In this document: piece after piece, positions 2,073 through 63,881 of the stretch
Layout: every line of letters starts with the position of its first letter
Numbering within the stretch: position 1 is the first letter of the stretch
DNA from: Eledone cirrhosa
Taxonomy: Eukaryota
DNA length: 64,000 bases
Reading direction: 5' to 3'
Assembly (NCBI GenBank): GCA_964016885.1
Contig: OZ024750.1
Coordinates: 46,810,001-46,874,000 of the forward strand
Notes under the pieces: model-generated
Database searches by the model: none
What the model was told of the DNA's origin: nothing
Seen by the model: only the letters and a program-made list of their open reading frames with translations
Made by a program: the position numbers and the translations under genes

Positions 2073-2475
2073 ATATCAATGATATTAATAAATGGAAACT
2101 ATATTTATGAAACGATATTTATTCTATTATATATATTTCAAGGGTACCAAAACTTTGGTACGCTCTCATCAGAAAAAAATACAAAAGTTGTTTTAAAAAT
2201 AGTGACATACCCAGGATTCGGACCTTCATGGTTCAATTTCCCTTAAGGTCCGATTCCTGGGCATGTCACTATTTATAAAACAATTTTTGTATTTTATCTC
2301 ATGAGAGCGTACTAAAGTTTTGGTGCCCTTGAAATATATATTATAGAATAAATATGGTTTTATAAATATAGTCTCCATTTATTAATATCATTGATATTAT
2401 ACTCCAGAAAAACTGCCGAGCGCTTCGAATCTGTTATAAATATAATTGTTGAATTACCAACAAATTTAATATATA
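2073..2475. mobile_element. Family A fold-back mini-element (about 325 bp palindrome at 2073-2397 with one HHR motif per arm)
   Basis: Arms 2073-2227 and 2246-2397 are reverse complements. Related copies lie at 4543-4812, 34955-35086 and 26181-26270. Confidence 0.8.
2120..2181 (-). ncRNA. Type I hammerhead ribozyme, family A, intact core
   Basis: Minus strand: tattttttt CTGATGA gag-c-gtaccaaa gt tttggtac-c-ctt GAAA tatata TA atagaata. Stem III is palindromic (ATATATAT). Confidence 0.75.
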
Positions 2476-3531
2476 TATGTATATATATGTTTCGTTGCTG
2501 TGGTAATGCGGCTGGAATGCCGATCGCTATATTTGATTTCCTAAGCTGTCTAAACGTGTTGTTATTACTCTGGGGTACTATCCCCATCCGAGTGATAAAG
2601 CTACATACCGAATTTGCATTCGTTAGCTTGGCCGGAAACTAAAGCTTCGTTTATGGTGTACTAACATTTGTATATATATATATATATATATATATATATA
2701 TATATATATATATATATATATATATATATATATGTATATATGTATATATAAATAAGTAAATATATATATATATATATATATATATATATATTTATATTTA
2801 TTAATTTATATATATATATATATATATATATATATATATATATATATATATATATTTATATATTTATATATATATATATATATATATATGTGTGTGTGTG
2901 TGTGAGTGTGTGTTTACGTGTGTGTGTGTGTGCGTGAACATTATACTGCATACGAAGGCATATACAATATGTTCATATAAAATATTAATTTATATGTCTG
3001 GCTCTATAAATTTTATATTCGGATCATGTCTTACATATCACTGTAGAAATATGAGAATGCCACACATGAATATGTACATTTTCCTACGTCATCTGTGATG
3101 TTTACTCATTCGGTACAGATACAACAGCTTATATATATGTTTAGTGCAAACTGCAGGGGCCAGGATTAATTAGGAGTAGTAAAAACTGATCTCGGTTAAC
3201 AATATTGATGTATGGTAGACATCTATCTACATGTTTACTTAATCTCCCTACATGCCTGTCTGTCTACATACCTACTTACTTACATACGCATCTGCCTACA
3301 CACACACACCTGCCTACACACACACACGCACCCGCACACACACACACACACACACACACACACACACATACACACACACACACACACGCGTATACAGAGA
3401 GAGAGAGAGAGAGAGAGATTGAGATAGAGATAGAGAGAGAGAGAGAGAGAGATGTGTGTACCGAGGAGGTTCAGTCGGGGCTAACCACTGTAAGTAACCT
3501 ACTCAATACATATCAGTGTATAAATATTTAA

Positions 3532-3620
3532 TACAGGACTAGAACTGTTTCATTCTAAGGAAATCATTAGGAAAGGCTTTCCCGATGATTTCCTTCTAAT
3601 GAAACAGTTCTAGTCCTGTA
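3532..3620. repeat. 89-bp imperfect palindrome with degenerate hammerhead motifs
   Basis: tacaggactagaactgtttcatt...aatgaaacagttctagtcctgta, centred at 3576. Cores read CCGATGA (+) and CTAATGA (-), each followed by GAAAC...GTC. Confidence 0.7.
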
Positions 3621-4542
3621 GAAGCCATTTCCATATTAAATATATATACATATATTTATACACATCTCTCTCTCTCTCTCTCTCTCTCTCTCTCTCTCTC
3701 TCTCTCTCTCTCTCTCTCTCTCTCTCTATCTATATATATATATATATATATATATATATTTGTGTGTGTGTTGGAAGATATAAGTAGACAGATGGAAATA
3801 TAGACAGGGAGGTATATATATATATAATAAGTTGACGAGACTAGCATGGGTTTCACTGCTTGTACCGGTTACACCTCAGCGTACTCAATAGATAATGTTA
3901 AATAAACTCTCAGAATAGACACAGTTATTCACTTTAACAGAACACCCATAAATGTGTACCTTGAATCTCTAACCATACTCGAGTTTCGGCCCCACTTAAC
4001 TCAGCAATCTACTGTCTGCATTTATGATTCAACAATGCACAATCGGCGCGTGTGGCTACATCAGCGGTTTCGCCTAATCAATAATCAGTTGAGCGTCAGA
4101 ATTCGATTCCAGTCCCTGTCGGCTATGACAGTTAAACATTCACAACTGAAATCCCTACGCATCATCGCAATGCGGTCAGTCGATTGACCATTGATTCAGA
4201 AATTTACGTGACGGCAGGAGATGAACATTCAGATAGTTCCGCCTCTGCCATAAGCTCTCAGCCAACATGTCTCAGACACAAATTAACCAGCCAGTGGAAT
4301 ACGGCTTTTAATATATCCATCTCCTATTGTTCTACAATATAATGTTAGCATTCGCCTCTAGTCTGCATGGCGAGAAATAGTGCGACAGTAACAATGGTAG
4401 TACCTAAAATCTTTCCGGACATTAAATGCCAACAGGCGATTAGACAGCGATATAGAGTTAGCGAGCTGGTTAGAATTCGAATTCTAGATATTTCGACCAC
4501 CCAAGTGCTTAACCGGTCAATTTGATATATATATATATATAT

Positions 4543-4812
4543 ACTATCCAGGAAAAACGTGAACCGTTAAGATCTTCTTCCTGGATATGTCAATATTTAA
4601 AAACAAACTTTCTATTTTATCTGATAAGAGTGTAGCAAACTTTTGGTACCCTTGAAATATATATAATAGAATAAATATGGTTTTATAAATATAGTCTCCA
4701 TTTATTTAATATCATTGAATATTATACTCCAGAAAACTTGTCGAGTGCTTCGAATCAGTTATAAACATTTATATTTGTTGAATTATCAACAAATTAAATA
4801 TCCCTTTTGCTT
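4543..4812 (+). mobile_element. Family A mini-element with mutated HHR core (CTGATAA)
   Basis: Closely matches 2250-2470 and is flanked on both sides by (TA)n. Confidence 0.75.
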
Positions 4813-4858
4813 ATATATATATATATATATATATAATGTATAAAATCAATACAATATT

Positions 4859-4936
4859 ATTACCTCATTACCAGAGGTTTCCCGAATGAGGCGAATACGA
4901 AATAAACGACTTCATTCGTTCGTCAGACGAGGCAAT
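4859..4936 (-). ncRNA. Type I hammerhead ribozyme in the inverted pLTR (core CTGACGA)
   Basis: Reverse complement of 9033-9110, with a change only at the variable core position 7. Confidence 0.85.
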
Positions 4937-61302: not shown

Positions 61303-61520
61303 GCAGTGGATTGGCAGTATCGGTAGGGGGTCGGGCGCCATGCTTTGCAGCAAAGAGTTACGGCCCTTTATGATCTGAATTCAAATCCCACCGAGGTTAA
61401 CTTTGCCTTTCATCCTACCCGTTTCGATAAAATAAAGTAGCAGTTACACACTGGGGTCGTTGTAATCTACTTTCCCTTCTCCCAAAATTGTTGGCCTTTT
61501 GCCTTTATAAGAAGCCATTA
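61303..61520 (+). mobile_element. tRNA-derived SINE, abundant family, full length
   Basis: Match to the main SINE consensus. Confidence 0.8.
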
Positions 61521-61529
61521 TTCGGACGA

Positions 61530-62200
61530 CGTGTTATTACTTAACTCATCAGAACATGATGTCCGACATGCATTTGACATATCTACTGCCGGGTGCTGCA
61601 CAACAAGTATTAAAATCAATGCTGCGAGGGCTGAGATACGTGTTTTGACAAGAAGGTCTACGCAATGCACTACATGTAATTTGAGTTCCACGAAATCAGA
61701 TGTAGAAGTTCATTAATCTTGGGGCTGAGATCACGTATGTTGGAATGTAACAGGCTGAATTATGTGCAGGAATTACAGGAGCTGGTGCAGTAATTTACAA
61801 TCTCCAGCATTCGGTCGTCGGGAGAAGGGAGGTAGGTCTGAAAGTTAAGCTCGCTATCTTAAATTTGTTATTCATACCAATACTGAAGTATAGCCACGTG
61901 TCTTATGTAATGACGGAAACAATAATATGATTCAACGAGATAAGGTTACTCTAAAAGGCCTATACCATGAGATCTTTTCTTGCTAGCTATAAAGGAAATC
62001 CCAACTAAGTCAATTACCAACTCAGAAGATACGTAGAAATAGGGCACCATTCAGAAAGCGTTAACTGGACGACGGAATTGCAGGTCGTCTTTTCGATATT
62101 ATCTGCTGGGAGGTACGCTCTTTATTTTCTGACCTTGCGAGGATTAGCCATGAGATAAACACCTCTAATTCGGAAATGTTGAACGTCAATTAAGACGGGG
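61530..62200 (+). mobile_element. Highly decayed RTE LINE 3' fragment
   Basis: Similar to 29140-29740 (agaagttcat..., gaagggaggtaggt..aaa, ..tatagccacg..gtaatgacggaa). Confidence 0.55.
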
Positions 62201-62917
62201 AAGGCTTTATTGTGTCGCCATTAAGGGCAATCGATACAGCACCAGTTGAAGTTGTCCTTGAAGAAAGCCGTTCTCATTTTATTACCACTAAACCTCACGG
62301 CTAGTTTCAGATCAAAGCTCACTTCAATGTTTTATAAACTGAAGCGTCCTATCAGCAAACATCACTTGATTAACTCGCATCTGGCTCTTTTCCTTCTGAG
62401 GAACTGATTCGTTATCCCGAAGCGTTTGCATAAATGTGCACGCCACCTTGCTACAATCATACATCCCATCTCACAGATGTTGGTTCCTGCTAACAGGTGG
62501 TGTTGTGTAGATGAGATATGCAATATCTTGTGTCGATGATACATCTTTGATTCTGCATTTCGGTGTGATAGAGCATATGAACAGGTTTATTATTATTACT
62601 TTATATATATATATATATATATATATATATATATATATATATATATATATATATATATATATATATATGTATATGGCGTGTGTGCGCGTGTTTGTGTGTC
62701 TGCGTATGCTTGCACGTGTTTGTTTGTGCATATATACATATATGTATTGTATGTATACATGCGTATATTATAATATCTCTTTAAAATACTACAGCGTTTA
62801 GAAAATTGCAATAGCAAGTGATTGGGCATACAAATGCGATTTGGGAGAGAGCAGATTATTTATATACAGTTAGTATATACATATGTATATATATATGTAT
62901 ATATGTATATATAACTA

Positions 62918-63092
62918 TTTATTAAAATAACAGATTAAAGTTTAAGCAGAAGATCCCGTTAAGGGTGAAAGCAGCGATTCTTTGCTTAAACTTTAATCTG
63001 TTATTTTAATAAATATTTGCTCTACAGTTCTTATATATTTGATATAGATTTATCCTTATCGCGCCCTCTTTGGATTTTTGTCTTCAAATTTA
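62918..63092 (+). mobile_element. Family B mini-element with a fold-back joined at the HHR core
   Basis: 62918-62948 is the reverse complement of 62983-63013, and the junction overlaps CAGAAGA. Confidence 0.8.
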
Positions 63093-63734
63093 TTATTATT
63101 ACTATATATATATATATACATATATATATATATATATATATATATATATATATATATATATATATATAAATATATATGTATACGTACATATATATGTGTG
63201 TGTATATATATATACAGAGAGAGAGAGAGATGTGTGTTCGCGCTTCTGTTTCATTGGATAATGATTTGTTCCATTTATAATATATTCAGAAGACTGCAAC
63301 GATTTTCTATAGATCACAGTCTTTAGAACTAAAAAAATAAAATAGAAGCAAGTCAGCTATAAGAATAGAAAATGTAATTATTTATCAACAATAGGAAAAA
63401 ATATATAAGTGAAATATTTACTGCCTAAAATATCTCTAGAAATACGCCTGATTTATAAATAATGTGATCATTTTTTTTTCTCTCTTTCTCTCGATATATC
63501 TATTTCTAAGATTTACGACAGCAATGTCAAGTGAGGAGCAGGGATATAAAACACATTCCATACAACGACATCAATTCCTTAAACATTATATAAGTTTGTT
63601 CCTTAGGATTAACTTGGCTAACAACAGAAATGTTATATATATATATATATATATATATATATATATATATATATATATATATATATATATATATATATAT
63701 ATATATATATATAAATATATAGTAATAATAATAC

Positions 63735-63881
63735 ATTTGAAGACTAAAATCAAAAGAGGGCTCAATAAGGATAAATCTATATCAAATATATAAGAACCGT
63801 AGAGCAAATATTTATTAAAATAACAGATTAAAGTTTAAGCAAAGAATCGTTGCTTTCACCCTTAACGGGATCTTCAGAAGA
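63735..63881 (-). mobile_element. Family B mini-element, HHR with canonical CTGAAGA core (63831-63880)
   Basis: Minus strand: ctt CTGAAGA t CCC gttaa GGG t GAAAGCA acgattctt TGCTT aaactt. The 5' strand of stem I is truncated by (TA)n. Confidence 0.75.

What the first reader, a model, noticed from the sequence alone, without database searches (positions are those of the whole stretch)
2073..63881. Fold-back and truncation breakpoints cluster at the hammerhead core
Seen: independent insertions end or invert at nearly the same structural point. Family C inverts or starts inside stem II (9483, about 15404, about 26025, 46535). Family B breaks at stem I or the core (16725, 17079, 48068, 62947, 63880). 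The palindromes at 3576 and about 54655 are centred a few nt 5' of the core, family E inverts about 25 nt upstream, and a family A copy stops at the core (35086). Most copies keep sequence on both sides of the predicted cleavage site. Inference: the RT copied through an uncleaved or re-ligated (circular) junction, stalled in the ribozyme fold, and the cDNA snapped back or switched template. The ribozyme would then set element boundaries and act as a genome-wide palindrome generator.
Basis: partly seen in the sequence, partly recalled or inferred. Interest (0 to 1): 0.8.

Follow-up and report, generated by a model that had tools for sequence, protein, structure and literature searches.

The report
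Twin-primed Penelope palindromes mark transcription starts
Thousands of short mirror-image repeats in this animal genome are stubs of Penelope-type jumping genes, nearly always one short-ended copy joined head to head with one long-ended copy, and their joints likely mark where the element's RNA begins rather than where copying stalls in its ribozyme.

Summary
The palindromes and clustered 5' ends are real; the stall-and-snap-back reading is not supported. Families A, B, C, E, F and I are 3' ends (pseudo-LTRs) of Penelope-like elements (PLEs) inserted in (TA)n; family C belongs to an intact 3,531-bp Hydra-clade element. In C, 96 of 116 arms stop in one 13-nt window, but none of 13 stop at the hammerhead 5' core. 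Across families the pile lies from 122 nt upstream to 43 nt downstream of that core, at an initiator-like motif; in C an untemplated G precedes it (G:A 5.9, against 0.38 three bases on), the known signature of a copied cap. Head-to-head pairs join one short-end and one tail-end arm (C 50 of 52, B 26 of 27, A 11 of 11), and 13 of 26 B pairs do not overlap, which snap-back cannot make. Best reading: both ends of a break prime at the two internal start sites of one capped RNA and run off its 5' end. Long copies pass that point (0 of 16 stop), suggesting circular or tandem templates. The architecture is published, and the scan saw similar palindromes in a shark; the mechanism was not found in print.

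The parts
1..2023 (+). 5'-truncated PLE: 3' part of an RT/GIY-YIG ORF (311-1495), inverted arm (1-346), hammerhead core at 1777
   Evidence: ORF identity read from motifs, no Pfam hit
2077..2466 (.). Family A head-to-head pair: short-end arm on - (2077-2235), tail-end arm on + (2240-2466)
3466..3645 (.). Family F head-to-head pair centred at 3576; tail-end arm on the left, short-end arm on the right (outer limits approximate)
4544..4812 (+). Family A solo tail-end arm that starts exactly at the initiator-like +1, flanked by (TA)n
4836..9212 (+). Near full-length Hydra-type PLE: inverted short arm 4836-5444, broken ORF 5598-7738, hammerhead 9043-9091, tail to about 9212
   Evidence: 44% identical to the family C protein over 470 aa
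9426..9617 (.). Family C pair: short-end arm (-, 9426-9485) and tail-end arm (+, 9482-9617), both starting 1 nt after the inferred +1
14633..14679 (.).
15267..15457 (.). Family C pair: tail-end arm (-) and short-end arm (+), joint at 15404
16650..16795 (.). Family B non-overlapping inversion: short-end arm (-) reaching the inferred +1, tail-end arm (+) of only 72 nt
16860..17153 (+). Family B short-end arm that runs about 220 nt past the hammerhead; 17079 is not a breakpoint
25967..26163 (.). Family C pair; the tail-end arm starts at the inferred +1 behind a 5-nt insert that ends in G
34953..35085 (.). Family A pair centred on the inferred +1 (about 35005), both arms cut short at their 3' ends; the right arm stops at the core
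42356..42605 (.). Family E inversion with little overlap: tail-end arm (-) and short-end arm (+) that starts 37 nt upstream of the core
46535..46673 (+). Family C solo tail-end arm starting at the inferred +1, behind an unrelated perfect 66-nt palindrome (46471-46536)
47994..48131 (.). Family B non-overlapping inversion
54470..54842 (.). Family D palindrome, arms 92% alike; hammerhead-like but fold not verified
62913..63102 (.). Family B pair joined through 7 nt of imperfect microhomology at 62947
63722..63879 (-). Family B solo tail-end arm that ends 3 nt inside the inferred +1 and joins (TA)n

Best explanation
The palindromes are paired insertions of Hydra-clade Penelope-like retrotransposons into (TA)n, and each is likely made when the two DNA ends of one break prime reverse transcription at the element's two fixed internal start sites on one capped RNA, both copies run off the RNA's 5' end, and end-joining fuses them head to head. 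Shown: the families are PLE 3' ends; each has two fixed 3' ends 70-90 nt apart; pairs join one of each; arms may overlap (palindrome) or not (inversion); 5' ends pile against a sharp wall at an initiator-like motif whose distance to the hammerhead is family-specific; in C an untemplated G precedes the wall. From the literature: the two 3' ends are RT start sites and both strands are cut and extended (PMC11167929); the promoter lies inside the pseudo-LTR (PMC2377424); an extra G marks a copied cap (PMC11702581). Inferred: the wall is the transcription start; one RNA serves both primers; a palindrome arises when the downstream RT displaces or follows the upstream cDNA; long copies and tandem arrays come from templates that lack this 5' end (hammerhead-made circles or read-through tandems). 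The ribozyme lies near the joints because start site, hammerhead and priming sites all sit in the same 200-nt module.
For: Intact 3,531-bp unit with a 717-aa RT/GIY-YIG ORF in tandem arrays. Two 3' ends per family; followed by (TA)3 in 147 of 151 C and 87 of 114 B arms. Short+tail pairs: C 50 of 52, B 26 of 27 (29 of 30 and 11 of 12 in untargeted DNA alone), A 11 of 11, F 10 of 11 with one untypable, E 3 of 3, and all 3 arrays examined. Arms of one pair are more alike than arms of different pairs (4.9 against 8.0 differences in 44 nt, 35 pairs, 0 of 10,000 shuffles). Non-overlapping pairs 13 of 26 in B. Genome-wide exact counts along C: 18,899 just inside the wall, 2,348 across it, 2,092 beyond core and stem I. 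The initiator-like motif is kept at the wall in 26 of 26 diverged A reference copies whose upstream flanks differ; F has a TATA box 30 nt upstream. Base before the C wall: G 4,142, A 706; 20 of 30 G loci are not explained by the partner arm; control three bases on: G 327, A 863.
Against: No RNA 5'-end data: the start site is inferred from DNA. The +1 positions were picked after the piles were seen, and initiator-like words are common in AT-rich DNA. The cap test was made genome-wide for C only. C is almost as frequent as G before the wall (3,560), although at least 20 of 30 such loci are templated by the partner arm or by a natural variant. Family H shows no pile at my candidate +1 (14 arms) and B's pile is modest (17 of 63). 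In A the ends trail up to about 55 nt downstream of +1, partly for want of matching references. No ORF-bearing copy ends at the upstream +1 (0 of 16), so a simple capped monomer is not the template of long copies and a second template class must be assumed. One RNA against two sibling RNAs is not resolved.
Confidence: 0.72

Rival explanations
1. One reading: RT reads through an uncleaved or re-ligated hammerhead, stalls in the fold, and the cDNA snaps back or switches template.
For: In B and F the pile is 5-6 nt from the core, at the 5' strand of stem I; in C it lies at the tip of a long stem II. Most arms span the cleavage site. Snap-back after cDNA synthesis is known for R2 (PMC11371274, passages).
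Against: Pile 69-122 nt upstream of the core in A, E and I; 0 of 13 C arms at risk and 1 of 30 further arms end in core plus stem I; 0 of 16 long copies stop at the same C sequence; non-overlapping pairs and short arms longer than their partners; the extra G.
Confidence: 0.07
2. A few master palindromes or short non-autonomous copies are transcribed and re-inserted as whole units; the centres vary by later erosion of the hairpin tip.
For: Would give short+tail pairs and matching arms by inheritance. Short copies that start at +1 may keep an internal promoter.
Against: Joints are diverse and carry untemplated inserts; solo arms stop at the same wall; several subfamilies with different upstream DNA share the wall; the short+tail rule also holds for kilobase pairs and 14-kb arrays; both outer ends are RT start sites in (TA)n.
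Confidence: 0.09
3. Head-to-head repeats arise by self-priming on an antisense template, as proposed for rotifer Penelope elements.
For: Proposed from the same head-to-head architecture (PMC3846280, passages); explains intron retention.
Against: A G before the sense-strand wall and a wall at a sense initiator-like motif point to a capped sense template; in-vitro priming is on sense RNA at the tail sites (PMC11167929); non-overlapping pairs are not self-primed.
Confidence: 0.05
4. The palindromes are miniature DNA transposons with fixed terminal inverted repeats and TA duplications.
For: Inverted arms and TA flanks.
Against: Arms are unequal by a fixed tail, centres vary, and the sequence continues into an RT/GIY-YIG ORF in long copies.
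Confidence: 0.01
5. Fold-back chimeras from library preparation or assembly.
For: Palindromes are a known artefact of amplified or long-read libraries (own knowledge).
Against: Arms differ by 0-20%, obey the short+tail rule and end at fixed sites; contigs of public runs, possibly of the same sample, show short-arm-to-tail-arm joints at many positions.
Confidence: 0.01

Closest known systems
Hydra clade of Penelope-like elements (Craig et al. 2021, PMC8557442)
   Same: Single RT plus C-terminal GIY-YIG ORF, RWK-type and DKT motifs, CxCX5C linker, no CCHH, insertion into (TA)n, hammerhead in the pseudo-LTR, tandem and inverted copies with a tail.
   Different: Unit 3.5 kb (described as generally under 3 kb); tail 70-90 nt (30-40 described); family C core is non-canonical and B carries a changed core base; tens of thousands of stub copies.
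PAc Poseidon element of Anolis in vitro (Frangieh et al. 2024, PMC11167929)
   Same: Two internal RT start sites that bound the tail; both strands cut and extended; AT-rich targets; hammerhead cleavage not needed for insertion.
   Different: In the parts read, it does not link the two sites to opposite ends of one break, nor 5' ends to the transcription start. Here the ORF starts downstream of the tail, not in the ribozyme.
Inverted pseudo-LTRs of Adineta Penelope elements (Arkhipova et al. 2013, PMC3846280)
   Same: Head-to-head inverted pseudo-LTRs, palindromes at the joint, tail on one arm, TATA plus a TCACT initiator-like motif in the pseudo-LTR.
   Different: Explained there by self-priming on an antisense template, left open; the data here favour two primers on a capped sense RNA.
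LINE-1 twin priming (as described in PMC11702581)
   Same: Both ends of a break prime on one RNA, giving an inverted 5' part; extra G from the cap at full-length 5' ends.
   Different: L1's second primer anneals by chance microhomology and the arms do not overlap; here the second site is fixed, and both arms often reach the RNA end and form a palindrome.
Non-LTR retrozymes (PMC7229834; bioRxiv 10.64898/2026.07.22.740005)
   Same: Type I hammerheads, tandem genomic copies, PLE pseudo-LTR ancestry, circular RNA proposed as template.
   Different: Retrozymes are 150-450-nt head-to-tail non-coding repeats; these stubs are head-to-head, and the tandem units here are coding 3.5-kb elements.

Membership tests
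Penelope-like element (EN+) | One ORF with RT and C-terminal GIY-YIG endonuclease | tested here: met
   717-aa ORF with RT core (RDDG) and YIG motif read from the translation; Pfam gave no hit, so this rests on motifs
Penelope-like element (EN+) | Tandem or inverted pseudo-LTR structure with an optional tail | tested here: met
Hydra clade | RWK-type and DKT motifs, CxCX5C linker, no CCHH, CxxC and CxH near the end | tested here: met
   LRWR, SDKT, CNCPDRSIC, CNLC and CKH against section 11 of PMC8557442
Hydra clade | Insertion into (TA)n | tested here: met
   147 of 151 C arms and 87 of 114 B arms
Hydra clade | Placement in the clade by RT phylogeny | not tested
   no reference proteins were fetched
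Type I hammerhead ribozyme | Three-way junction with CUGANGA, GAAA and NUH | tested here: inconclusive
   Canonical core in A, E, F, I; C folds as a three-way junction with a GUC site but a variant core; most B copies carry a changed core base; no Rfam hammerhead among the 150 of 156 rows listed
Type I hammerhead ribozyme | Self-cleavage | not testable with these tools
   only a weak excess of C ends at the site (5 of 75, p 0.02; about 3 of 41 short arms)
Non-LTR retrozyme | Short head-to-tail non-coding tandem units | tested here: not met
   stubs are head-to-head; tandem units are 3.5 kb and coding
MITE / DNA transposon | Fixed, equal terminal inverted repeats with no RT parent | tested here: not met
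Capped RNA 5' end (transcription start) | Untemplated G at the 5' junction; direct 5'-end mapping | tested here: inconclusive
   G excess met for C; not counted in other families; no RNA holder listed

The most novel reading that the evidence does not exclude
PLEs integrate by programmed twin priming: a dimeric RT/endonuclease primes both ends of a (TA)n break at two fixed sites of one sense RNA. On capped linear RNA both copies run off the 5' end and leave strong-stop-like palindromes, which make a genome-wide fossil map of each family's transcription start; on hammerhead-made circles the same reaction gives full-length and tandem copies. One mechanism would then explain tails, inverted pseudo-LTRs, tandems and the role of the ribozyme.
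Probability: 0.45. Interest if true: 0.8.

Novelty: new variant of a known kind. Interest (0 to 1): 0.62.

Why it matters
How PLEs make inverted pseudo-LTRs and one-sided tails is stated as open in PMC3846280, PMC8557442 and PMC11167929. This genome holds more than 33,000 tail copies of one young family and intact elements, and gives three rules that can be tested at once with the existing in-vitro system: one short and one tail end per insertion, a wall at the start site with a cap-derived G, and no wall for long copies. It argues for a sense, capped template against the published antisense idea, moves the hammerhead's likely job from blocking RT to making circles, and warns that such stubs will be filed as MITEs or microRNA hairpins (one search matched several to microRNA models below threshold).

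Tried and rejected
Rfam scan: no hammerhead among the rows listed. A DNA search of the genome with the family C stub found nothing because common words are skipped; patterns were used instead. A canonical core directly before the C pile: 15 matches, mostly made by the partner arm or by chance. Pfam missed the Hydra proteins. Search for RNA runs: no RNA holder listed; this says nothing on expression. Contigs laid on 9430-9617 did not span the stretch. Prediction that full-length copies end at the upstream +1: failed, 0 of 16. A common +1 for family H: no pile. Uniform-distribution null: replaced by a per-base hazard, since the ribozyme lies within 100 nt of the short end and short copies fall near it by geometry alone. 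Rows dropped: 6 B and 2 C arms that were duplicates from overlapping loci; 12 false reference copies (inversions, deletions or repeat flanks). Clade placement by tree and homolog search were not run.
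Full report
Setting. The window lies in a 3.0-Gb, AT-rich animal assembly (G000, contig C10) and about one sixth of it was masked as simple repeat. It holds two PLE ORFs with inverted arms and hammerhead cores and many short repeats. For an unbiased test I took 1.06 Mb (window, 400 kb of flank, 600 kb from five other contigs), later 110 kb more, and loci anchored 3' of the ribozyme, blind to the 5' end.

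What the families are. B and C continue upstream, in longer copies, into an untranslated region and an RT/GIY-YIG ORF. C has an intact 3,531-bp unit in perfect tandem arrays, with a 717-aa ORF that shows the motifs given for the Hydra clade. A, E, F, H and I have the same layout, a core about 140-190 nt from the long 3' end, and long natural copies; their ORFs were not read. Each family has two fixed 3' ends 70-90 nt apart, followed by (TA)n. This is the PLE tail, whose limits are RT start sites in vitro (PMC11167929). Copy numbers are high: 33,123 exact tail matches for C, 14,897 for B, 25,524 and 12,118 anchor matches for A and F.

Most are true junctions; 17079 is not, and 35086 is a 3' end. 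The assumed C core is absent from natural copies; the real fold has a variant core further upstream, a long stem II, and a GUC site.

Is there clustering? Yes. Measured as distance from the long end, 96 of 116 C arms end at 133-145, against per-base hazards 8 to 90 times lower in the other bins that have events, and 0 of 13 end in core plus stem I. Whole-genome exact counts agree: 18,899 inside, 2,348 across the wall, 2,092 beyond the core; these use different 35-36-mers, so only the size of the steps is meaningful. B has a weaker pile, 17 of 63. In A, 33 of 86 arms end within -5 to +25 nt of one point, 3 end 6-60 nt upstream of it, 29 run further, 16 end at +30 to +76 and 5 in or beyond the ribozyme; F 18 of 44 within -2 to +4; E 6 of 19 within -1 to +2; I 6 of 11 within -6 to +4; H shows no pile. 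The point lies 79-91 (A), 69 (E), 122 (I), 6 (F) and 5 (B) nt upstream of the core and 43 nt downstream of it in C. A landmark that moves by 165 nt against the ribozyme is not the ribozyme.

What the wall is. It has a sharp upstream edge and a trailing downstream side, as an RNA end with some end-trimming would give. It falls on a pyrimidine-pyrimidine-A motif that matches the initiator consensus (consensus recalled, not from a call). In A the motif is kept in all 26 reference copies although the DNA upstream of it differs widely; TCACT was already named as an initiator-like motif in rotifer pseudo-LTRs (PMC3846280), and the Drosophila element starts inside its pseudo-LTR (PMC2377424). F has a TATA box 30 nt upstream. 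In C, where the natural base before the wall is T, G occurs 4,142 times, C 3,560 and A 706. In 30 loci each, the partner arm explains 10 of the G cases, and partner or a natural variant at least 20 of the C cases. Three bases downstream the ratio reverses, G 327 and A 863. An extra G marks capped 5' ends in L1 insertions (PMC11702581). The same count in a second family is open.

How the two arms arise. Head-to-head neighbours are one short-end and one tail-end arm in 50 of 52 C, 26 of 27 B, 11 of 11 A, 10 of 11 F (one untypable) and 3 of 3 E pairs, and in 3 of 3 arrays up to about 16 kb. Partners share variants. In 13 of 26 B pairs the tail arm stops before the short arm's start, so the arms share nothing; in 22 of 26 B and 17 of 50 C pairs the short arm reaches further 5'. 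Snap-back of the tail cDNA cannot make these, and snap-back of the short cDNA cannot make a tail. Two primers, one per DNA end, can. This is L1 twin priming with a fixed second site, and it fits a protein that cuts and extends both strands and is predicted to be a dimer (PMC11167929). One RNA for both is inferred; two RNAs from one source locus would look alike.

A result that cuts both ways. Of 30 ORF-bearing C loci, 14 end inside the unit and 16 (10 independent insertions) pass the upstream copy of the wall; none stops there. A structural stall should have stopped most. But a capped monomer should also end there, so long copies need another template: circles or read-through tandems. Units within an array differ by 0-1 base in the 7 comparisons that could be made, as rolling-circle copying would give, though recent tandem duplication would too. 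These loci were the 30 best matches, biased to young copies and arrays. For TSS-started C RNA the 5' half of the ribozyme is missing, which explains why stubs span the cleavage site without any re-ligation.

Literature seen. PMC11167929: parts 1-2 of 4. PMC8557442: passages and section 11. PMC3846280, PMC11702581, PMC11371274, PMC7229834: passages. PMC2377424: passages and section 15. bioRxiv 10.64898/2026.07.22.740005: part 1 of 5. No supplements were read; figures S1-S2 of PMC11167929 and the element files of PMC8557442 may bear on novelty. Searches listed no paper that ties PLE palindromes to twin priming, a start site or a cap G; the 2004, 2006, 2014 and 2017 PLE papers were not listed by these searches and were not read.

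Verdict. Interest 0.62.

Noticed in passing
G000:C1:437.198-437.215 Mb (L236-L238): Array of near-identical 3,531-bp family C units in which one difference alternates with period two (units 1 and 3 alike, 2 and 4 alike), as a dimeric circular template or a duplicated dimer would give; an assembly effect is not excluded.
   Followed up: partly
window 10722-11132 (-): Exon of an ionotropic glutamate receptor-type gene (Pfam Lig_chan-Glu_bd, E 2e-22); the stubs nearby probably lie in its introns.
   Followed up: no
window 46471-46536: Perfect 66-nt palindrome of unrelated sequence fused directly to the 5' end of a family C arm; possibly fold-back of target DNA or of a captured piece.
   Followed up: no
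window 34495-34946: Old 450-nt element with about 70% complementary arms next to the family A pair; origin not determined.
   Followed up: no
window 11107-11390, 14448-14625, 23283-23471, 25539-25711, 39914-40102, 61300-61467 and more: Abundant repeat of about 180 nt, more than 15 pieces in the window; it recalls cephalopod SINEs (from memory, untested).
   Followed up: no
window 24317-24726 and 52745-53040: A further family (G) with a hammerhead-like core at 52954 and an inversion at about 24410-24440; same layout expected.
   Followed up: no
L318, L334, L340 and other family C joints: Runs of A of up to about 22 nt and short templated duplications between the two arms, which points to terminal addition or polymerase-theta-type joining.
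   Followed up: no
window 1724-1740 and 31150-31200 (-): Families P1 and H carry a YY1-like motif upstream of the hammerhead (motif recalled), a possible start-site element in families without a clear wall.
   Followed up: no
window 23430-24298 (-): Fragments of a LINE-type reverse transcriptase (Pfam RVT_1, E 2e-7).
   Followed up: no
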